From NCBI GenBank assembly GCA_009914755.4, contig CP068257.2:36512001-36576000 (forward strand): a stretch of DNA of 64,000 nt. Direction: 5' to 3'. This DNA is from the human T2T-CHM13v2.0 reference genome, Homo sapiens. The notes below the pieces were generated by a model. That model saw nothing but the letters and a program-made list of their open reading frames with translations. It had not been told where the DNA came from and made no database searches. This document shows, one piece after another, positions 5,545 through 62,990 of the stretch; position 1 is the stretch's first letter; every line of letters starts with the position of its first letter. The translations under genes and the position numbers were made by a program.

Positions 5545-5960
5545 GGATCGCTTTTATATTGAAATAAGACAAGGTTCTCCAGAGAAACAGAATATATATA
5601 TATATATATGTATGTATTACCACACACGCATATATATATGTATGTATACATATATGTATATATACACGTTTTAAATTTTATTAAAAATTTTAAATATATT
5701 TATTTTAAGAAATTGTCTTGTGTGATTGTAGGGGCCGGCAAGTTCAAAATCTGTAAGTCAGGTCAGCAGGCTGAAAACTTAGGCAGAAGTTAATGCTACT
5801 GTCTTGAGGCAGAATTTGTTTTTTTTGTTTGTTTGTTTTGTTTTTTTTTTCAGGAAACCTCAGTTTTTGCTCTGAAGGCCTTCAGCTGACTGAATGAGGG
5901 CCATGCACATGATCCAGTTATCAAGGAGAATCTCTTTACTTAAAGTCAGCTGAGTAAATT
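5545..5960 (-). mobile_element. ERVL-MaLR-type LTR (MLT1-like) with internal microsatellite, antisense
   Basis: ctccagagaaacagaa + (TA/TG)n, then ...ggccggcaagttcaaaatctgtaagtcaggtcagcaggctg...tgaaggccttcagctgactgaatgagggcc. Same family as 20620-21118 and 54375-54790. Confidence 0.5.
5588..5672. repeat. (TA)n/(TATG)n/(CA)n compound microsatellite
   Basis: atatatatatatatgtatgtattaccacacacgcatatatatatgtatgtatacatatatgtatatatac. Confidence 0.9.
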
Positions 5961-6540
5961 GTCTAAAAAATACCTCCACAGCACCTAGATGAGTTTGATG
6001 ACATAACTGTGTATTATATAGCCTAGCCAAGTTAATACATAAAACTCATCATCACAGGCATCAAGCTCAAATGTTAGGGTTTGCAGTGGACTAATGCATA
6101 CTTAAGTACCTAGATGACACCCAGAAGGGACAAAAGCCCTGAGCTTCCCCACTCAGCATGCTGCCACCTCCATACCCATGTTGACTCTCTTTCTGTTTTC
6201 AGGTTGTAACCCACGTATTCTGGTTCTGACCTGCTCTATTTTCTCTTTATCCTCCTGGAGCAGGAGTGAAGTAGCAAGTATGTTGAGTCATAGGACAGAT
6301 TTCACTATTCCTTGAATGCTGACAGAACTCAGAGTCTTATGTCTCATGATTTTCCACTTGATTTCCATTTCTATGCTTTGGGTAATGAGGTTTAACTTGC
6401 CTCTCCATTGGGAATACAGATTCCTGGAAGGTAGAGAATCTTATTTTCTGTGTATAGAGTTCATAGTTAGGTTTCAGGTGATATTCAGAAAATACATTCA
6501 GAATTTTAGAGATGTATGGAGTTGTGAAACTAGCAAAATA

Positions 6541-16384: not shown

Positions 16385-18640
16385 TTTATTTTTAGAGCAG
16401 TTTATGTTCACAGCAAAATTGAGAAGAAAGTACAGAAAGTTTCCACACACCCCCAGTCTCCATACATGATGGCATCACCCTAGTCAGCAGTCCACACCAG
16501 AGTGGTACATTTGTTACAAATGATGAATCCGCACTGACAACTTATAATCACCCAAAGCCCATAGTCTAAGTTAGGGTCACTCTCAGTGCCATATATTTTA
16601 TGTGATTTGACTATATGTAATGACAGGTATCCACAGAGATACCTGTATGACAGAGTGCCATACAGAACAGTTTCACTGCACTGAAAATCCTCTGGGATCC
16701 TCCCATTAATCACTCCCTCCCACCAACCTCTTTTCATTGTTTCCATAGTTGTGCCCTTTTACAGAATGCCAGACCATTATAACAACACAGTATGGAGCCT
16801 TTTTAGATTGGCATCTTTCTGAGTTTTGGAAATTATGTAAAAACCTGCTCTACATGTCCCTGAGAAGGTTTTGATTGGATATAAGTTTTCAACTCGCTTG
16901 TGAAAATACCAAGAAGTATCCTTGATGAATTGTATGGTAGGAATCTGTTTAGTTTTGTAAGTAACAGCCAAATTGTCTTCTGAAGTGCTAGTAATATTTT
17001 TCATAATCACCAGCAATGAATGAGAGTTCCTGCTGCCCCACATCCTCACCAGCATTTGGTGTTGTCAGGGTTTTATATCTTGTCTGTTCTAATAAAAGTG
17101 TAGTGCCATCTCATTGTTGCTTTGACTTGCAGTTTCCTGATGACATATGATGTTGAGAGTTTTTTCATATGCTCATTTGCCATATTTATATCTTTTTTGA
17201 CAGAGTGTCTGTTCAGGCCTTTTGCCCATTCTTTAATAGGTTGTTCATTTTTTTGTTGTTGTTGAGTTGCAAGTATTCTTTGAATATCTTGAATAATATT
17301 TCTTTCCAGATATGTACTATGAAAATATTTTTCTTCCAGTCCATGGCTTGTCTTCTCATTCTCTTGACAATGTCTCTCACAGAATTTTGGGTCTTTTTTG
17401 TTTGTTTTTAAATTTCAATGAAGGTCAGCATATTACCACTGTATTCATGGTGAATTAGATTTTCTCCTGTCTTCTTCTAGGGGTTTTATAGTTTTGTGTT
17501 TACATTTAGGTCTGTGACCCATTATGAGTTAATTTTTGAAAGGGGTGTAAGGGCTAGGCCTATAGTCATTTTTTTTTTCCTGCATGTGGATGTTTAGTTG
17601 TTACAGCACCATTTCTTGAACAGATTATCTTTTCTCCATTGTACTGCCTTTGATTCTTTGTAAAAAATCATCAGTTAACTATATTTGTGTAGATCTATAT
17701 CTGAGGTCTGTATTTTGTTCCTTTGATCTATTTGCCTATTGTTTTGCCAATACAACACTCTCCTGATGATTATGGCATTGTAATAAGTATGGAAGGTGAA
17801 TAATATCAGTCCTTTCACTCTATTATTCTTTAATATTGTATTGATTATTTTGAGTCTTTTTATCCTCATATAAACTTTAGAAGCAGTTTATCAAAATCCA
17901 CAAAATAATTTCCTGGGGTTTAGATTGGGATTGTGTTGAGTCTATAGGTCAACTTGGACAAAAGTAGCATCTTGACAATATTGAGTCTTTATAGAAATAA
18001 AAATAAAATATTTCTCCATTTATTTAGCTGTTTGATTTCTTTCATCAGAATTTTGTTGTTTTCGTCTTGTACTTATTTTGTTAGATTTATAAGTATCTCA
18101 TTTCAGAAAGTGCTAATTTTAATGGAAAACAATTTATTTTTAATTAAAATTCATTTTTAATTATAATTTAATTTATAGGAAAACAGTTTAATTTTGTTAA
18201 CCTTATATCCTGTACCTTATTATAATCACTAGTTTCAGAAATTATTTTTGGTTATTTTGGATTTTCTACATAGACAACACTGTCATTTGTGAAAAAGAGC
18301 AGCCTATTTCATTCTTCACAAGCAATATATCCCCTTTTCTCATATTACTGCATTAAGACTCCCAGTAAAATGTTGAGAAGGGGTGCTGATAGAGAACATC
18401 CTTGCCTTGGTCTCGACGTTAGCAGGGTAATTTCTAGTTTCTCACCATGTTGGTTATGATGGTAGCTCTACATTTTTTAATAATATTCATTATCAAGTTA
18501 AGGAAATTCTCCTGTATTATTGAGCTGGTTTTTACCATGAAAGGGTATTCGATTTTCTCAAGTGCTTTCCTTTCTATTGATAGGGTCATGCTATTTTTCT
18601 TCTTCATATATAGGATGGATTGCATTACTTTCTTTTTATT
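16385..18640 (-). mobile_element. L1MA-type LINE-1, 3' 2.3 kb (ORF2 C-terminal half plus 3'UTR), antisense
   Basis: Left end is the reverse complement of the L1MA 3' terminus (tttatttttagagcagtttatgttcacagcaaaattgag...). Antisense ORF2 blocks follow (ttttgacagagtgtctgttcaggccttttgcccattctttaataggttg...). Confidence 0.8.
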
Positions 18641-19062
18641 TGTTCATTTATTTATTTTCTTTTCAACTTATTTTAGGTTGAAAGGGCACATGTAACAGGT
18701 TTGTTACATGGGTAAATTGTGTGTCATGGGGGCTTTGTGTACAGATAATTTTGTCACCCAGGTGATCGGCCTAATACCTGATAGATAGTTTTTCAATCCT
18801 CACCATCCTCCCACTCTCAACGGTGGACTGGATAAAGAAAATGTGGTACATATACACCATGGAATACTATACAGTTGTTACAAAATGAGATCATGTCCTT
18901 TGCAGCAACGTAGATCGAGTTGGAGGTCATAATGCTAAGTGAATTAATGCAGGAATAGAAACTAAATAAATACTTCATGCTCTCACTTTTAAGTGGGAGC
19001 TAAACAGTAAGTACACAGGGACACAAAGAAGGGAACGATAGACACTGGGGTCTACTCTCTTA
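18640..19062 (-). mobile_element. L1P-type 3' end with internal inversion (twin-priming-like), inserted beside the L1MA
   Basis: 18690-18835 is the antisense of the last ~150 bp of an L1PB/L1PA 3'UTR and is preceded by a degenerate T-rich tail. 18836-19062 is sense L1 (aatgtggtacatatacaccatggaatactatacag...gacactggggtctact), and it ends exactly where the inverted piece begins. Confidence 0.5.
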
Positions 19063-26471: not shown

Positions 26472-27247
26472 GTTTTTTAAATTAAATTAAATTAAATTTT
26501 ACGTTCTGGGATACATGTGCAGGAAGTGCGGGTTTGTTACATAGGTAAACGTGTGCCATGGTGGTTTGCTACACCTATCAACCCATCACCTAGGGATTAA
26601 GCCCAGCATGCATTAGCTATTTATCCTGATGCTCTCCCTCGTTTCAGCCCCTCGCTGACAGACCCCAGTGTGTGTTGTTCCCCTCCCTGCATCCATGTAT
26701 TCTCATTGTTTAGCTGCCACTTGTAAGTGAGAACATATGGTGTTTGGTTTCCTGTTCCTGTATTAGTTTGCTGAGGATGATGGTGTCCAGCTCCATCCAT
26801 GTCCCTGCAAGGGACATGATCTCGTTCCTTTATATGGCTTCATAATATTCCATGGTGTATATGTACCACACTTTCTTTATCCAGTCTATCACTGATGGGC
26901 ATTTGGGTTGATTCCATGTCTTTGCTATTGTGAATAGTGCTGCAGTGAACATACGCATGCATGTATCTTTATAATAGAATAATTTCTATTCCTTTGGGTA
27001 TATACTCAGTAATGGGATTGCTGGGTCAAATGGTATCTCTGGTTCTAGTTCTTGGAGGAATTGCCACACTGTCTTCCACAATGGTTGAACTGATTTACAT
27101 TCCCACCAACAGTGTAAAAGCATTCCTGTTTCTCCACAGCCTTGCCAGCATCTGTTGTTTCTTGACTTTTTAATAATCGCCATTCTGACTGGCGTGAGAT
27201 GGTATCTCATTGTGGTTTTGATTTGCATGTCTCTAATGCTCAGTGAT
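26472..27247 (-). mobile_element. L1PA 3' end (about 780 bp, 5'-truncated), antisense
   Basis: (ttaaa)n tail complement, then ttttacgttctgggatacatgtgcaggaagtgcgggtttgttacataggtaaacgtgtgccatggtggtttgc...ctcattgtggttttgatttgcatgtctctaatgctcagtgatga. TSD tgatgagagtttt at 26468-26480 and 27243-27255. Confidence 0.9.
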
Positions 27248-28209
27248 GAGAGTTTTAAGAAGATGGAGTATGAGAGTTCAACACTGTATTTGGCCAGATG
27301 GAAGCCGTAGGAAACCTTAAGCAGAGTAGTCTTCAAAATCTTGAATGAAGTGGATGGAGGTGGGGATAGAGAATGTGCAGTGAGCAAATAAAGAGAGAAT
27401 TTACACAATTCTTTGGACTCATTGTGATGTAATATAAAGAGAGCAGAAAAAAAGAGCAGCAGTTGGAAATGATGTAGAATCTGGGGAGAGACCTTTTAAA
27501 GAAAGGTGATATCAAGGCTTGTTTGTGGACTGAGAATGATGTGTGATCTTGGAAGTCAGCTTGAGAATGGAGCAGTCAAGACACAAATTGGTTGGCAGGT
27601 CATGATCAGCATGAGAGGAATCTCTATCCTGCTTCCAGGCTATCCTTGGCACTGTGATTTTTAATAAAATAATGCACTGACTTTGCATTCAAAGAAATTA
27701 CTGGACAGTCAAAATATACACACATATGCAAAAATTGAGGAGCAATTTCCCATAAGATGTAAGCAAGAGTAATAGTTATTTTGTGTTATTTCTGTAAGTG
27801 TTAGTGGCAGTAAGTAAAGAATGAATTGTAAAATTGTGACAGGGAAGGTAGAGGAGTGCTTTTTGAAACCTATTTTCCATTAGATCTTAAAGAAAGTTGA
27901 GAACATAAATTTGTGGAGAAGTGAGGGTGAAGATTCTTAAGGGAGGCAGAAGCAAGATTTAATAACAATGCAGAACAAGGAATCAGCAAAACCTGTTGAA
28001 AACGTCAGAAAACTTAGGGGAAGCTGGAGCAGAGGGTTAGAGTTGGGAGACCTGAGTGAGGGTCTTGGCTTTCACTCAGTGTGCAGTCAGGATCCACCTA
28101 ATGTGGAATAACCATGGGGTTCTGGAATGGGCTGAGACAGTGACATATTTGCCCATATTAGTGGATCCATGAATCATTTTCTACAAAGTCTTCTTGTTTT
28201 GTTTTTCAG

Positions 28210-35698: not shown

Positions 35699-36574
35699 AA
35701 ACTCAACTATGTGATGATTTCTTCTTTTACAACAATTTTATTGTCATAGTTTGGCATAGTTTACAAATTTTCAATGAAATATAAACCCTAAAATTTAAAA
35801 TATTGCTCTAAGAATTTTTAAAAATAGAGTCATCTTTAAGTGCAAAGGGGCATATTATTCAAATTCAATTTTGAAGTTTATGTTTGTACCTTTCCTGGGG
35901 TTAGGGGCCATTTTAGAACATGGTAATCATGGACAGTATCTGATGGTACTGGTGGCCATTTCAATAGCTGTTAGCTGCAAATTCAACAAGTATAGGATAC
36001 CTGTCTCCTTCTTGGGACTTTCATGGCATACCCCTTTTCCCAATAATGCTGTGTGGTAAAAAATAATAGTAATAATAATGCTGTGAGGTTCAGAGAGACT
36101 GAATAACTCTCAAAAGTCATGTAAAAAAGATATATGACAGAGTTACTATTTGAACAAAGGTTTTCAGACTCCCAGGTATTCCCTGCAAAGAGAAGGTATG
36201 AGGAACAACCCCTTTGTCTCTGTGACCCCACAGAAGCCTCTGGGACCCCACTTTCTGATTCTTCCTCCTATTCCTTTTTGTCTTTGATCTGCTTCTATTT
36301 CTCCTCTCCCTTTTCCTCTTGTCTTTTATCTGATCCATGCCAATCGTGCTCTCCAAAATGAAGAACCTATGATCCCTCGATTGTTGACAACCTGAGAACA
36401 TTTCTTGCCCTACCCAGGACAGAAGGAAATGACATAAAAACATTTTATTCATTGGGTGAAATGGGATTATTTTTGAGCTGCTCTGTTCAACATCAGTGAG
36501 GCTGCTCAATAAAGAGAAGAGGAAACCTGGCATAAAAGAAGAAACTGGGCTTCAGCTTTGCATGCATATACATG

Positions 36575-37035
36575 TTTATTGCAGCACTATTCACAATAGC
36601 TGCAAAGACATAGAATAAACCCAGATGCCCATCAATGGTGGATTGGATAAAGAAAATGTGGTACAATACACCACGGAATACTGTGCAGCCATAAAAAAAG
36701 AAAATTATGTCCTTTGCACCAACATGGGTGCAGCTGGAAGCCATTCTCCTAAGTGAATTAGTGCAGAAACAGAAAACCAAATACCACATGTTCTTACTTA
36801 TAAATGAGAGCTAAACATTGGGTACCCATTGATATAATGACAGGAAGAGCAGACACTGGGGACTCCAAACATGGGGAGGGAGGGAGGAGAGTAAGGACTG
36901 ATAAACTACCAATTGACTACTATGTTTACTCCTTGGGTGACGGGTTCAATTGAAGCCAAAACCTTAGCATCATATCCATATAACAAATGTACACATGTAC
37001 CCCCAGAACTAATATTTTAAAAAAAATAAGAAACA
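36575..37035 (+). mobile_element. L1P 3' end (about 460 bp), sense
   Basis: catgtttattgcagcactattcacaatagctgcaaagacatagaataaacccagatgcccatcaatggtggattggataaagaaaatgtggtacaatacaccacggaatactgtgcagcc...gtacccccagaactaatattttaaaaaaaataag. Confidence 0.85.
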
Positions 37036-54790: not shown

Positions 54791-56294
54791 TGGGTGCCAT
54801 GACCTTGCAAAGTTTATGTTAAAGCATAAAATTACAGAACCTTTTTATCCCCTTATAGTCTTGGCTCATCTTTATGTTTTTGAATCTCATAACTGCTTCT
54901 GTTTGATCACAGCTTGATTCACTGATCTTATTGCATGGAGGCATTGCCTTCTTTTATTCTATTGAGAATGGAAAATTGTTTCCAAAATAATTTATTTCTG
55001 GCTTTTCTATAAATCATTTTGAAAAGTCTCTGTGCTTCTCTGAGTCTTCAGGGATACTGATTCTTTCAACTTTTTGAATCTTTTGTTCAAATCAGGACTG
55101 TATTGATCTTTTTCTTTTAGATTCATTCTTCACAAAAGAAACATTTATCTAGACTTGACAAAAGCCTAGAGAAAAATGTGTTAATTGCCCTTTCATAGTT
55201 GATTAGATTACTGGTTATATTGGTCAAGGCTCATAGTGGAAGAAAGTAGAATGCACTCTATTTGATCTGAAAAGAAAGTGATGTATCAGATGGAATGATG
55301 AACCTTACAGAATCTCAGTGAGGCCCAGGGCATAAGGTTTAATTATCACATAATCAAAAATACAGCAATCAAAGGAAATGCCCAACCACCTATGGAACTG
55401 TTTCTGTTGCTGCTGCCTACTGCTCAGTACCTAAGTTTCTAGGAATCAGACTTCAGAAACTGCCAGACCTGCAACGGGAGAATGAACGTTTCTGTCACGA
55501 ACCATGGCCACTGGCTCCCATTGTTCACACCCTCCTGGTCTCATGTGGACATCTGCTTGGCAGAATCTAAGCCACATGCAAAATCTTCTCTGCTAAGTAC
55601 GGTTTTTAGTCTCCTGGCATCTGTTATACTAGAAGGTTCAGTAGAAGGAAGTGGGAATGGCAGCGGAGTGAGCCAGTGAAAAATCTGCTGCACTAAACAA
55701 TCTCAGTGCTGGATGGAATACCCACATCTCAAATCCAAGGTCTAGAAGACCTTTATCCATGGTGGCTTCACTGTAAATGAGTGGACCTCTCATCATGTCA
55801 CTGATTTTCTGGGACTCTATACTAAAGAAAGATTTTTTAAAAATTGCAATTCCTTCTTATATCAACTCCAGGGCTCCTCCTTCCTGCATCTTCCTCCACA
55901 AAGCTTTATTTTCTTAAATGAAATGTGTCACCAGCAATCTCTCCCCAAACCTTCCACACCACAACTCACCATACTCACTAGATTTTTGAGAATCTTAGTC
56001 TTGAGTGAAAATACAAGTGTGTGGGGAAAAAAAGGAGAAGTAGATTCTGACCACCAACACAGTAGAAGACGAGCCACATGGTTTCCAGGCTGGCACAGAT
56101 CCTGGGTACATGAGCTGGGAACAGACTTGATGCAGGGATAATTTTGGGTAAATTAATTGACCTGTTTAAGGATATTTGGAATAAGTTACCTATAAGCAGA
56201 ATTCTAGAGGTAATGTCCTATGATTTTATAAAATCTGGAAGTCACTCATTTACATATTGGAAATTCTTTTTCTTGACAAAAATGATTCATGACT

Positions 56295-57880
56295 TCAACA
56301 AATGGTGCTAGAACAACTGGATGTCTATGTTCAAAAGAATGGTGGAGTACCCCTTCTTCACTCCACACATCAAAACCATCTCATTGTTCAATTCCCACCT
56401 ATGAGTGAGAACATGCAGTGTTTGGTTTTTTGTCCTTGTGATAGTTTGCTGAGAATGATGGTTTCCAGCTTCATCCATGTCCCTACAAAGGACATGAACT
56501 CATCATTTTTTATGGCTGCATAGTATTCCGTGGTGTATATGTGCCACATTTTCTTAATCCAGTCTACACCTGGGACTGTTGTGGGGTGGGGGGAGGGGGG
56601 AGGGATAGCATTAGGAGATATACCTAATGCTAAATGATGAGTTAATGGGTGCAGCACACCAACATGGCACATGTATACATATGTAATAAACCTGCACGTT
56701 GTGCACATGTACCCTAAAACTTAAAGTATAATAATAAAAAAATCTCTGAAAATATACCCAAGACCTAGATGTAAAAATTAAAACTATAAAACTTTTAGAA
56801 GAAAACATAAGAGTAAATATTTGTGATTTTGAGTTAGGCAATAGCTTTTTAAGATACAACACCAAAAACACAAGGGAAAAACAAAACAAAACAAAACAAA
56901 ACAAAATCAGTGAATTGAACTTCACCAAAACTAAATGGGACAACATATTTAAAAATCACATATCTGATAAGGGACTTGTATCCAGAATGTATAAATGATA
57001 CCACTTGCAACTCAGCAATAAAAAGACAACCCAATTAAAAGCAGACAAATAATTTGAACAGACATTACTACAAAAAAGAAATACTAATGATCAATAAGCA
57101 CATGAAAGATGTTCAACATCATTAGTCTTTCAGGAAATGGAAACCACAAGACATCACTTTACACCCACTAGAATAGCTCAAAAAGAAAAGGCAGACAATA
57201 ATAAATGTTGTCAAGGATATGGTGAAATTGGAACTCTCATTCATTGCTAATGGGAGTAAAAGAGTGCAGTCAATTTGGAAAACAGTTTGGGAGTTCTTCC
57301 AAAAGTTAAACATAGAGTTACCATATAATTCAGCAATTCTCCTCCAAGAATACTAAAAACATGTGTCCACACAAAAATTCACACATTAATGTTCATAGTA
57401 GCATTATTCATAATAGCAAATAAGTGGAAACAGCCCAAATATCCATCAACTGATAAATGGATAAATAAAATGTGGTATATTTATTAACTGAAATATTATT
57501 TAGCAATAAAAAGAAATGAAGTACTGATTCATGTTGAGCATCAGTGAATCTTGAAAACATGATGCTAAGTGAAAAGAGCCAGTCACAAAAGACCACATAT
57601 CACATGATTCAATTTATATTAAGTGTCCAAAATAGGTAAATCTATAGAGATAGAAATCAGATTTATGCTTGACAAGGGATTGTGGAGGAGGGGGCAATGG
57701 GAAGTGGCTACCAATAGGTGTGGTGTTTCTTTTTGGGGTAATGAAAATGTTATAAAATTAGATAATGTTGGTAATTGTACAACTTTGTGAATATACTCAA
57801 AATCACTGACTCATACACTTTAAAAAGGTGAATTTCATGGTGTGTTAGTTATATCTCAAAAAGGCTATTAGAGATTTACT
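56295..57880 (+). mobile_element. Old L1 (L1MB/L1MC-like) ORF2 C-terminus plus 3'UTR, sense; interrupted by the young L1 at 56381-56745
   Basis: ttcaacaaatggtgctagaacaactggatgtctatgttcaaaagaatgg... then, after the insertion, ...ctagatgtaaaaattaaaactataaaacttttagaagaaaacataagag...gtgtggtgtttctttttggggtaatgaaaatgttataaaattagataatgttggtaattgtacaactttgtgaatatactcaaaatcactgactcatacactttaaaaaggtgaatttcatggtgtgttag. Confidence 0.8.
56381..56745 (+). mobile_element. Very young L1PA/L1HS-like 3' end with 5' inversion (twin priming), nested in the L1M
   Basis: 56381-56567 is the antisense of about L1 nt 5730-5920 (tcattgttcaattcccacctatgagtgagaacatgcagtg...ttaatccagtctac). 56568-56745 is sense about 5955 to the end (acctgggactgttgtggggtggggggaggggggagggatagcattaggagatatacctaatgctaaatgatgag...cttaaagtataataataaaaaaa). 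About 35 bp is deleted at the junction. Confidence 0.85.
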
Positions 57881-57999: not shown

Positions 58000-58640
58000 G
58001 TGGGATACAGATTTAAAGAATCTAAATTTTCATTTTAAGATATAGAAAATACAAGCAAAAGAAAATTAAACCCCCAATAGAAAGAAGACACAATAAACAT
58101 AAAAGTAAAAATAAATGAAATAAAAACTAAAATATAATGATAATGATGATGATAATAATAATAATGGTAATAATAGTAACATGAATGAATCCTGCAGCTG
58201 TTTTTTTTTAAATGAATAAAATTGATAAAACTCTCACTAGACTTATGCAGAAAAAAAGAAAGAAGACACAAATTACCACATTAGGAGTAAAAGAGGAGCA
58301 TCACTACAGATCCTATAGACTTTAAAAGGATCATAGGAAATATTATGAGCTGCTTTATTCCAATAACTTCAACAACCTAAATGAAATGGATAAATCCTCT
58401 GTCATAATGTTACCTTGCTTGTATTGGAATGTGTTTATTCTCAGGAGACCCATGCAGAAATATTAGATAAAGTGCAACTCACTTTCAAATGGCTCAGCAA
58501 AATGTCAACAGTTGTTGAAACTAAGTAGTGAATATAAAAATGTTTATTATGTTATTCTTTTATTTTACCTTTTCTGTATTTTTGAAAATTTTTGTAATGC
58601 AAAATTGGGAGAAATAAATCAGGTATGAATGCATGTTAGT
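58000..58640 (+). mobile_element. Old L1M ORF2 N-terminal fragment
   Basis: ...aatgaataaaattgataaaactctcactagacttatgcagaaaaaaagaaagaagacacaaattaccacattaggagtaaaagaggagcatcactacagatcctatagactttaaaaggatcataggaaatattatgagc... is colinear with L1 ORF2. Confidence 0.5.
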
Positions 58641-60669: not shown

Positions 60670-61698
<1,029 letters not shown>

Positions 61699-61789
61699 AG
61701 AATACAAAATGGATTCAAAACTTACAGATAACTTGTAAAAATCAATTTTAAAAGATAACCTAATTTTAAAATGTTCAGAAGTCTTGATC

Positions 61790-62045: not shown

Positions 62046-62089
62046 AGAAGCTATCCAAGTGACTGATAGGCATATGAAAAAACACTCCA

Positions 62090-62990
62090 GCATTAATTGC
62101 CAACAGAAAAATGCAAATTAAACCCACAGTAAGATACCATTATCCACTCATTAGAATGGCAAAAATTAAAAACACTGACAACATCAAGTGTTGGCAATGG
62201 TGGAGAACAGTGGGAGCTCTCATACACTGATGGTTGAAGTGGAAATTGGTTCAATTTTGGAAAACAGTTTGGCAGTATCTACTACAGCTAAACATTTATG
62301 TCTCCATGGCTCAGCAATTCCTGGTCATATTCTCAAGAGATATGAGGACTGTGGCCACCAAGAGACATGTATGAGAAAGGTCCTAGCACCTTTATTTATA
62401 ATAGCCCTGAACATAAAACAATAAATGTCTGTCAACAGTATGATGAACTAAATAAATTGTGGTGTATGCGCACAATGGAATAGTATATGGCAATGAAAAA
62501 ATATAAGCTGTTGCCCCATGCAAGGATGTTTCACAGACATAATGTTAATCAGAAGAAAGCAGATCTCAAGGAGTCCATGTTGTATGATTCCATCTATTTG
62601 AAGCTCAGTAACACATGGTACTAGAAGTCAGAATAGCAATTACCTCTAGGACTGGGGATTCATATTGAAAGAGAATGAAGGTTGGGAAGCCTGTTGGGGC
62701 CTGGGAATGTCTTAGATGTTGTTCTGGCAGGTGGTTGCAAGCCTGTAGACATATGTAAGAGGTTATTGGATGGTACGCTGAAGATTGCAGCACCTAACCG
62801 TAGAAGGTACAGTGTTACATCTCAATATAGAAGAGAAAATATTAAAGAAAAAAAGACCGTGGGTCCTTTTGGACTTGAACCTTATGCCACAGTGGTACTA
62901 CAGAGTCATGTCTTAACTGGAACTCAAATTGTAATACCTTTAAAGCTTTGTGTTGAAAAGAATGAACATTTCAGAATGTAATTCTGCATT
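62090..62990 (+). mobile_element. Old L1M (L1MC/MD-like) ORF2 C-terminus plus 3' end, sense
   Basis: ...aaatgcaaattaaacccacagtaagataccattatccactcattagaatggcaaaaattaaaaacactgacaacatcaagtgttggcaatggtggagaacagtgggagctctcatacactgatggttgaagtggaaattggttcaattttggaaaacagtttggcagtatctactac... Confidence 0.7.

What the first reader, a model, noticed from the sequence alone, without database searches (positions are those of the whole stretch)
56376..56760. A second twin-primed, very young L1 3' fragment nested inside an old L1M
56381-56567 is antisense L1 (about nt 5730-5920) and 56568-56745 is sense (about 5955 to poly-A). The junction joins the 5'-most ends of both cDNAs, with about 35 bp of L1 deleted, exactly as in the twin-priming model. 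The sense part is nearly identical to the L1HS 3'UTR. The host L1M ORF2 sequence continues on both sides (accatc | insertion | tctctgaaaat). Two twin-priming events within 5 kb is notable.
Basis: seen in the sequence. Interest (0 to 1): 0.5.

Follow-up and report, generated by a model that had tools for sequence, protein, structure and literature searches.

The report
Ordinary inverted L1 insertion, not young
This is a routine 360-base fragment of a primate L1 jumping gene whose front half was flipped during insertion (the well-known twin-priming outcome), sitting inside a much older L1 relic; it belongs to an extinct, middle-aged L1 subfamily, not to the young human-specific one.

Summary
The observed structure is real. 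Window 56379-56566 is antisense L1 (ORF2 codons 1217-1275, the stop codon and 9 nt). Window 56570-56742 is sense L1 3'UTR with a 10-nt A-rich tail. About 29-35 nt of L1 is missing between the two pieces, and the inner junction joins the lowest L1 coordinate of each. This is the geometry of a 5'-inverted (twin-primed) insertion. The host is an old L1M ORF2 (36% amino-acid identity to L1PA ORF2p) that runs colinearly on both sides.

The "very young, nearly L1HS" reading is not supported. The element is only about 93% identical to L1HS-Ta-like copies (sense part 90.7%). About 20 of its roughly 25 differences are states shared with older L1PA copies. Its best matches (97.5-99%) look L1PA5-like. 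Three of its four CpGs have decayed. It is most likely an L1PA4-6-grade insertion, roughly 15-25 Myr old; this date is inferred, not measured.

The target-site duplication is weak. It is either an exact 5-bp ATCTC or a degenerate 11-bp repeat.

The neighbouring inverted L1 at 60687-61697 is the truly young one (L1PA2-like). It is an independent event. Two inverted L1s within 5 kb is expected by chance. Known phenomenon, low interest.

The parts
56288..56377 (+). Host old L1M ORF2 relic, part upstream of the insertion (ORF2p-equivalent aa about 932-958)
   Evidence: tblastn of an L1PA ORF2p (from contig L006) against the window and against the reconstructed empty site. Nucleotide alignment with another L1M copy at 17440-17640.
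56378..56382 (+). ATCTC: left copy of the only exact flanking direct repeat (candidate 5-bp TSD). TCTC is also microhomology with the L1 RNA (...AAUGAGA), the expected annealing site of the second primer. An alternative 11-bp degenerate TSD copy is AAAACCATCTC at 56372-56382.
   Evidence: Direct reading and script check that both copies read ATCTC. L1 homology extends to 56379 in the alignments.
56379..56566 (-). Inverted L1PA segment: ORF2 codons 1217-1275, stop codon and 9 nt of 3'UTR
   Evidence: Translation. PDB ORF2p hit with E = 3e-31 at aa 1217-1275. Blastn 98.9% to L008/L020/L022/L113 and 95.2% to the L1HS-like L012. Maps to L006 coordinates 5760-5947.
56566..56569 (.). Inversion junction ACAC. 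It cannot be assigned cleanly: there is 1 nt of possible microhomology, and CAC probably belongs to the sense segment.
   Evidence: Alignment to the panel consensus.
56570..56732 (+). Sense L1PA 3'UTR segment, starting about 29-35 nt downstream of where the inverted segment stops in L1 coordinates
   Evidence: Blastn 98.2% to L006, 97% to L004/L016 and 90.7% to the L1HS-like L012. Maps to L006 coordinates 5983-6152.
56733..56742 (+). Short A-rich tail (AATAAAAAAA)
   Evidence: Direct reading.
56742..56746 (+). ATCTC: right copy of the flanking repeat. The alternative degenerate 11-bp copy is AAAAAAATCTC at 56736-56746, 9/11 identical to the left copy.
56747..57535 (+). Host old L1M ORF2 relic, part downstream of the insertion (ORF2p-equivalent aa 962-1244, 36% identity, many stops and frameshifts). 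The relic continues further 3'.
   Evidence: tblastn.

Best explanation
A single retrotransposition event of an extinct, middle-aged primate L1 (L1PA4-6 grade, most like L1PA5) inserted about 360 nt of the L1 3' end into the ORF2 relic of a much older L1M.

Proposed mechanism (inferred from the twin-priming model, not shown):
- First-strand cDNA was primed from the poly-A tail on the bottom strand and reached about L1 nt 5856-5864.
- The cleaved top strand, ending in ...ATCTC-3', annealed by 4 nt (TCTC with GAGA) to the same RNA just after the ORF2 stop codon.
- It primed a second cDNA that ran about 188 nt further upstream.
- The two cDNA 3' ends were then joined.

The result is an inverted 5' piece, a sense 3' piece, loss of the roughly 30 nt between the two priming and termination points, and a short A-tail. 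The element has since decayed as neutral DNA and has no indicated function.

What is shown: the anatomy, the shared subfamily and age of the two pieces, and host colinearity. What is inferred: the priming steps and the date.
For: Structure:
- Opposite orientations and near-contiguous L1 coordinates. On contig L006 the pieces map to 5760-5947 antisense and 5983-6152 sense.
- The antisense piece is ORF2p aa 1217-1275 plus the stop codon.
- The inverted piece lacks a 3'UTR and poly-A of its own, so it is not an independent TPRT product.

Both pieces share one origin:
- Both carry the same older-subfamily states: GAAGCTGGAAACC, CAGCAAAC, GGACAAAAAAC and GCATGTTC in ORF2; TAAATGAyGAGTTAATGGG, GCACACCAAC, AACAAAC and CACGTTG in the 3'UTR.
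- Private changes are similar: 3/188 and 2/170.

Target site:
- There is 4-nt microhomology at the 5' junction. This is reported for 95% of 5'-inverted L1s, about 70% of which have 2-5 bp (PMC2912911).
- With one ATCTC copy removed, the host L1M reads colinearly with ORF2p (TPHIKTISENI against [11 protein letters not shown]) and with other L1 copies.

Age:
- 93% identity to the L1HS-Ta-like contig L012, against 97.5% to L008, which matches both L1PA5-designed primers exactly.
- 3 of 4 CpGs have decayed, against 0 of 4 in the neighbouring L1PA2-like copy.
- L1PA4 peaked about 18 Ma and L1PA5 about 25 Ma (PMC3525338 and PMC7449397).
Against: - The target-site duplication is poor. Only 5 bp (ATCTC) are exactly repeated. 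5'-inverted L1s rarely have TSDs that short: 4 with a 5-bp TSD among 639 (PMC2912911).
- The bottom-strand nick implied by a 5-bp TSD (5'-GAGAT/GG) does not resemble TTTT/A.
- The alternative 11-bp TSD (AAAACCATCTC against AAAAAAATCTC) gives a canonical TTTT/G nick, but needs a 2-nt change and an almost absent poly-A tail.
- Private divergence (5/355, or 1.4%) is at the low end for a 20-25 Myr-old copy.
- The subfamily name rests on contaminant-contig references, weak primer typing and my recollection of Repbase consensus sequences. No curated consensus was available.
- No orthologous primate locus could be examined.
Confidence: 0.85

Rival explanations
1. A plain 5'-truncated sense L1PA insertion (about L1 nt 5640 to poly-A) whose 5' 190 nt were later inverted in place by a DNA-level rearrangement that also deleted about 30 nt.
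For: It would give the same final arrangement. Both pieces have the same subfamily states and the same private divergence.
Against: - It needs three coincident breakpoints, one of them exactly at the element's 5' end.
- There are no inverted repeats at the breakpoints that could mediate an inversion.
- 5' inversion arising during insertion is very common (18-31% of recent L1 insertions), so this route is not needed.
- The 4-nt microhomology between the target and L1 at the outer junction is what internal priming predicts.
Confidence: 0.04
2. Two independent L1 events: an antisense ORF2-end fragment and a separate sense 3'UTR fragment that happen to abut.
For: Nested and adjacent L1 fragments are common. 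This 64-kb window holds at least eight L1 pieces.
Against: - The antisense piece has no 3'UTR or poly-A of its own. It stops 9 nt after the ORF2 stop codon.
- The two pieces are only about 30 nt apart in L1 coordinates.
- They share the same subfamily states and the same decay level.
- The host sequence is colinear once the whole block is removed.
Confidence: 0.02
3. An atypical insertion that is endonuclease-independent or associated with double-strand-break repair, and which produced an inverted structure. This would explain the non-canonical nick site and the near-absent TSD.
For: - The only exact repeat is 5 bp.
- The implied nick site is 5'-GAGAT/GG.
- Short TSDs are rare among 5'-inverted L1s.
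Against: - The element ends in the normal L1 3' end with an A-rich tail, without 3' truncation.
- An 11-bp degenerate TSD with a canonical TTTT/G nick is an equally good reading.
- There is no target-site deletion.
- In a copy this old, TSD decay is expected.
Confidence: 0.08
4. One reading: a very young L1HS or L1PA2-age twin-primed insertion.
For: The overall similarity to L1HS is high enough to be recognised by eye (about 93%).
Against: - 25-27 differences in 361 nt from the L1HS-Ta-like contig L012.
- About 20 of these are shared with older L1PA copies.
- It lacks the ACA and ACG states that distinguish the L1HS-like contigs of the panel, and also the GCGCACCAGC, AACTAAC and CACAATG states.
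- 3 of 4 CpGs have decayed.
- The genuinely young neighbour at 61315-61680 is 98.9% identical to L012.
Confidence: 0.01

Closest known systems
5'-inverted L1 insertions explained by twin priming (Ostertag & Kazazian 2001; surveyed in PMC2912911 and PMC12016303)
   Same: - An inverted 5' segment directly followed by a sense 3' segment ending in poly-A.
- The segments are neighbours in L1 coordinates with a small gap.
- The inner junction joins the lowest coordinates of both segments.
- 4-nt microhomology at the 5' junction.
- Segment lengths of 188 and 173 nt, within the reported range.
   Different: - The TSD is either unusually short (5 bp) or degenerate (9/11).
- The nick site is non-canonical under the 5-bp reading.
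- The A-tail is only 10 nt. Both the weak TSD and the short tail may simply reflect age.
L1PA5 / L1PA4-L1PA6 subfamilies of primate L1 (Khan et al. 2006 nomenclature)
   Same: - Shares the ORF2 C-terminal and 3'UTR states of older L1PA copies in the reference panel.
- The nearest full-length reference, L008, matches both primers designed on the L1PA5 consensus without mismatch.
   Different: - It carries GGGACTG (the state of younger families) together with AACAAAC and CACGTTG (the state of older families), so it sits at a subfamily boundary.
- The formal subfamily label could not be tested without Repbase or Dfam consensus sequences.
L1HS (L1PA1), Ta and pre-Ta
   Same: Same L1PA lineage and same 3'-end architecture.
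   Different: About 7% sequence difference. The states that distinguish the L1HS-like contigs of the panel are all absent.
The neighbouring inverted L1PA2-like insertion in the same window (60687-61697)
   Same: The same kind of structure: inverted ORF2 piece, sense 3' end and poly-A.
   Different: The neighbour differs in these ways:
- It is 98.9% identical to the L1HS-like reference.
- It has a perfect 15-bp TSD (AAGAATACAAAATGG) and a TCTT/AA nick site.
- It has a 346-nt internal gap.
- All its CpGs are intact.
It is a much later, independent event.

Membership tests
5'-inverted (twin-primed) L1 insertion | Two segments of one L1 in opposite orientation, with the inverted one on the 5' side of the sense one | tested here: met
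   Blastn and tblastn: 56379-56566 on the minus strand and 56570-56742 on the plus strand.
5'-inverted (twin-primed) L1 insertion | The inverted segment derives from L1 sequence immediately upstream of the sense segment (small gap or overlap), and the inner junction joins the lowest coordinates of both | tested here: met
   L006 coordinates 5760-5947 and 5983-6152, giving a gap of 29-35 nt. Orientation read directly.
5'-inverted (twin-primed) L1 insertion | The sense segment ends in the L1 3' end plus a poly-A tail | tested here: met
   ...AAAGTATAAT followed by AATAAAAAAA at 56733-56742. The tail is short.
5'-inverted (twin-primed) L1 insertion | A target-site duplication of typical length (about 10-17 bp) flanking the whole unit | tested here: inconclusive
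   The only exact repeat is ATCTC (5 bp). An 11-bp repeat is 9/11 identical. 5-bp TSDs are rare in this class (4 of 639; PMC2912911).
5'-inverted (twin-primed) L1 insertion | Microhomology between the target top strand and L1 at the 5' junction | tested here: met
   TCTC at 56379-56382 is shared by the host and by the reverse complement of L1 ...AATGAGA.
5'-inverted (twin-primed) L1 insertion | L1 endonuclease-type first-strand nick (TTTT/A-like) | tested here: inconclusive
   The nick is GAGAT/GG under the 5-bp TSD and the canonical TTTT/G under the 11-bp degenerate TSD. Motifs as listed in PMC12016303.
5'-inverted (twin-primed) L1 insertion | Both segments arose in one event: same subfamily and same age, and present or absent together in orthologues | tested here: met
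   Same subfamily states, and 3/188 against 2/170 private changes. The orthologue part of this feature is not testable with these tools.
L1HS (human-specific, very young L1) | Near-identity to L1HS and the L1HS-diagnostic 3'UTR states (ACA or ACG trinucleotide, GCGCACCAGC, AACTAACCTGCACAATG) | tested here: not met
   90.7% (sense piece) and 95.2% (inverted piece) identity to the Ta-like contig L012. The element reads GATGAG, GCACACCAAC and AATAAACCTGCACGTTG.
L1HS (human-specific, very young L1) | Absent from the orthologous loci of other apes | not testable with these tools
   No primate genomes are available. The protein and contig collections hold only scattered human contaminant contigs.
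L1PA4-L1PA6 (about L1PA5) subfamily | Best match to that subfamily's consensus over the ORF2 3' end and the 3'UTR | tested here: inconclusive
   No curated consensus was available. The nearest references are L008 (97.5%, exact for the L1PA5-designed primers), L004 and L016. The name rests partly on my recollection of the consensus sequences.
Old L1M host element | Highly diverged L1 ORF2 relic, colinear across the insertion site | tested here: met
   36% amino-acid identity to L1PA ORF2p over aa 962-1244, with stops and frameshifts. Residues 932-958 lie immediately upstream. The L1M subfamily was not determined.

The most novel reading that the evidence does not exclude
The insertion may really have only a 4-5-bp target-site duplication and a non-TTTT nick. 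It would then be a rare 5'-inverted L1 that entered at a pre-existing or non-canonical break, that is, an endonuclease-independent or repair-associated twin priming. Kojima (2010) reports that short TSDs are essentially absent from 5'-inverted L1s.
Probability: 0.08. Interest if true: 0.25.

Novelty: already known. Interest (0 to 1): 0.08.

Why it matters
It matters very little beyond correct annotation. 5'-inverted L1 fragments number in the tens of thousands in ape genomes, and nesting inside older L1s is the rule in AT-rich DNA.

The useful outcome is the correction. The element is a middle-aged L1PA copy, not a recent and possibly polymorphic L1HS insertion. It should therefore not be treated as a candidate human-specific or polymorphic insertion.

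The only mildly interesting detail is the weak target-site duplication. A comparison with orthologous primate loci would settle it.

Tried and rejected
1. Exact look-ups of three ORFs that span the three junctions (111, 106 and 73 aa) found nothing. The aim was to fetch the same or orthologous loci from public assemblies. A control look-up with a generic L1 ORF showed that the collection holds only scattered human contaminant contigs from metagenomes. I therefore did not spend a large homology search on finding primate orthologues.

2. A viral-contig scan for an L1 3'UTR core gave no hits.

3. I searched all 144 fetched loci for the three locus-specific junction 40-mers and found none, so no second copy of this locus was obtained.

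4. Curated L1PA consensus sequences could not be obtained. Khan et al. 2006 (PMC1356131) and Ostertag & Kazazian 2001 (PMC311219) are not held, and Wagstaff et al. has no held supplement. I used contaminant L1 contigs as an empirical reference panel instead.

5. Primer-based typing of the reference contigs is only weakly discriminating, because the primers amplify L1PA2-6 in practice.

6. I rejected the idea that the inverted piece belongs to the host L1M. It is 95-99% identical to L1PA copies, whereas the host is about 36% identical at the amino-acid level.

7. I rejected a target-site deletion. Compared with two other L1 copies, the reconstructed host site has no missing bases.

Full report
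**What is in the sequence**

The window is primate DNA with 40.7% G+C. Between 56379 and 56742 lie two adjacent pieces of an L1PA-type LINE-1 3' end.

The first piece, 56379-56566, is antisense. Its reverse complement translates without interruption to [59 protein letters not shown] followed by a stop codon. This aligns end to end with residues 1217-1275 of the solved human LINE-1 ORF2 protein (8uw3, 8sxt, 9k6g; E = 3e-31, 53/59 identical). The antisense piece is therefore the last 59 codons of ORF2, the stop codon and 9 nt of 3'UTR.

The second piece, 56570-56732, is sense 3'UTR. It is followed by a 10-nt A-rich tail, AATAAAAAAA, at 56733-56742.

On a full-length L1 reference (contig L006, see below) the two pieces map to 5760-5947 and 5983-6152. 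Between 29 and 35 nt of L1 are therefore missing. The exact number depends on how the four junction bases ACAC (56566-56569) are assigned.

Its absolute L1 coordinates are about 90 nt too high. If ORF2 ends at nt 5818 as in L1.3 (my recollection), the pieces are about 5640-5827 and about 5856-5864 onward. The chance level is not an issue, since the blastn E-values are 1e-70 or better.

**Geometry**

Reading the plus strand, the order is:
- host sequence;
- the reverse complement of L1 about 5827 running down to about 5640;
- L1 about 5860 running up to the poly-A;
- host sequence.

The outer left end of the inverted piece and the start of the sense piece are neighbours in L1. The inner junction joins the lowest L1 coordinate of each piece.

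This is the arrangement described for 5'-inverted L1 insertions and explained by twin priming (model as summarised in PMC2912911, and PMC12016303). The inverted piece has no 3'UTR or poly-A of its own, so it cannot be a separate target-primed insertion.

At the left junction the host top strand ends in ...ATCTC. TCTC is also the reverse complement of the L1 sequence GAGA in ...AATGAGA. This gives 4 nt of microhomology at the point where the second primer would have annealed. Kojima reports microhomology at this junction in 95% of 5'-inverted L1s, with about 70% having 2-5 bp.

**The host**

I took an L1PA ORF2p from contig L006 and ran tblastn against the window. It places residues 932-958 at 56294-56374 and residues 962-1244 at 56750-57535. 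Identity is 36%, with several stops and frameshifts.

After removing 56383-56746, which keeps one copy of ATCTC, the host reads TPHIKTISENI against ORF2p [11 protein letters not shown] without a gap. At the nucleotide level it is colinear with both an L1PA copy and another old L1 relic in the window at 17440-17640. No bases are missing at the site.

**Target-site duplication**

The only exact flanking repeat is ATCTC, at 56378-56382 and 56742-46. Read as the TSD, it implies a bottom-strand nick at 5'-GAGAT/GG, which is not L1-endonuclease-like. A 5-bp TSD is also rare for 5'-inverted L1s: 4 of 639 in PMC2912911.

An alternative is an 11-bp TSD, AAAACCATCTC (56372-56382) against AAAAAAATCTC (56736-56746), which is 9/11 identical. 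It gives a canonical TTTT/G nick, one of the motifs counted in PMC12016303, and a typical TSD length. It requires a 2-nt change and leaves almost no poly-A tail.

I cannot decide between these two readings without orthologous sequences. Both give the same pre-insertion site.

**Age and subfamily**

No curated L1 consensus was available. I built an empirical reference panel by scanning for a conserved 24-mer of the L1PA 3'UTR. The scans returned 24 human-contaminant contigs in bacterial genome assemblies and 120 in metagenomes.

Two of the contigs (L012 and L018) carry the GATGACACATTAG motif. From memory, I recognise this as the L1HS-Ta state.

Identity of the finding to the references:

| Reference | Identity |
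|---|---|
| L012 (L1HS-Ta-like), inverted piece | 95.2% (9/186 mismatches) |
| L012 (L1HS-Ta-like), sense piece | 90.7% (16/172 mismatches) |
| L012, whole element | about 93% |
| In-window young copy at 61317-61689 | 93-94.5% |
| Best panel matches, inverted piece (L008, L020, L022, L113) | 98.9% |
| Best panel match, sense piece (L006) | 98.2% |
| L008 over all 361 nt | 97.5% |

L008 matches both primers designed on the L1PA5 consensus (PMC12432230) without mismatch, although this typing is weak.

Of about 25 differences from L1HS within the L1 body, about 20 are states shared by a third to a half of the panel. They are therefore subfamily-diagnostic rather than private. Examples are GAAGCTGGAAACC, CAGCAAAC, GGACAAAAAAC, GCATGTTC, ATTAGGAG, TAAATGA, TTAATGGG, GCACACCAAC, AACAAAC and CACGTTG.

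Against the consensus of the 12 nearest copies the finding has 5 private substitutions in about 355 nt (1.4%). Three of them are CpG transitions. They are split 3/188 and 2/170 between the two pieces. Three of the four consensus CpGs have decayed. All four are intact in the neighbouring young copy.

The two pieces therefore share one subfamily and one age, and that subfamily is an older one. From memory of the Repbase consensus sequences, the state combination fits the L1PA4-L1PA6 range best, and L1PA5 most closely. L1PA4 peaked about 18 Ma and L1PA5 about 25 Ma (PMC3525338 and PMC7449397). The private divergence is on the low side for that age, but with only five events the interval is wide.

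"Very young" and "nearly identical to the L1HS 3'UTR" are not supported.

**The other event, and whether the pair is notable**

At 60687-61314 (antisense, ORF2p aa 899-1110, 97% identical) plus 61317-61697 (sense, 98.9% identical to L012) there is a second 5'-inverted L1. It has a perfect 15-bp TSD, AAGAATACAAAATGG, at 60672-60686 and 61698-61712. Its nick site is TCTT/AA, and 346 nt of L1 are missing between its two segments. This copy is L1PA2-like and is the genuinely young one.

The two events belong to different subfamilies and ages, so they are independent.

About 10% of all human L1 copies are 5'-inverted, as are 18-31% of recent insertions. There are about 500,000 L1 copies in the genome. 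That gives roughly one inverted L1 per 60 kb on average. By my own estimate, a second one within 5 kb of a given one is then expected about 15% of the time. The pair is not notable.

**Rival explanations**

- A later in-place inversion would need three breakpoints, one exactly at the element's end. No flanking inverted repeats are present to mediate it.
- Two independent insertions are contradicted by the missing 3' end of the antisense piece, the near-contiguous L1 coordinates and the equal age of the pieces.
- An endonuclease-independent variant cannot be excluded, given the weak TSD. It is not required, however, because the 11-bp reading gives a canonical site.

**Verdict**

The structural interpretation (twin-priming product nested in an L1M) is supported. 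The age claim and the "notable" claim are not. This is a known, very common kind of feature, and I see no indication of function.

The decisive missing test is a comparison with orthologous primate loci, which these tools cannot provide.

Noticed in passing
window 60672-61712: A textbook 5'-inverted L1PA2-like insertion. The antisense part is 60687-61314 (ORF2p aa 899-1110) and the sense part is 61317-61697 (98.9% identical to an L1HS-Ta-like reference). It has a perfect 15-bp TSD, AAGAATACAAAATGG, a TCTT/AA nick site, 3-nt microhomology (TGG) at the 5' junction, and a 346-nt gap between the two segments. This is the really young element of the pair.
   Followed up: partly
loci L001-L024 (genome contigs) and L025-L144 (metagenome contigs): Human L1 sequences, up to full length (for example L006 at 6299 bp with intact ORF1 and ORF2, L008, L014 and L016), sit as contigs in deposited bacterial genome assemblies. 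These include several JCM Streptomyces and Actinomadura assemblies, Mycobacteriaceae assemblies and MAGs, as well as many metagenome assemblies. This is host or laboratory contamination in public records.
   Followed up: partly
window 56878-56905: An (AAAAC)n microsatellite, about 5-6 units, inside the host L1M relic just downstream of the insertion.
   Followed up: no
window 16884-19053, 26491-27249, 36551-36864, 58178-58399, 62071-62498: Further L1 relics of various ages detected with an L1PA probe. The copy at 26491-27249 is 81% identical in nucleotides and 77% in amino acids to the probe, so it is intermediate in age. The others are 67-75% identical in nucleotides (40-52% in amino acids) and are old L1M-type. 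Subfamilies were not determined.
   Followed up: no
window 56493-56508 and 56632-56647: A 16-nt inverted repeat, 94% complementary. It exists only because L1 contains a short internal direct repeat (AATGATGAGTT in ORF2 and AATGAyGAGTT in the 3'UTR), and the 5' inversion turns it into a potential stem. It is probably of no consequence.
   Followed up: no
window 56388-56708 (minus strand): A 106-aa chimeric ORF runs across the inversion junction. It joins antisense 3'UTR sequence to the last 59 codons of ORF2. It is not on record in the protein collection, and there is no evidence that it is expressed.
   Followed up: partly
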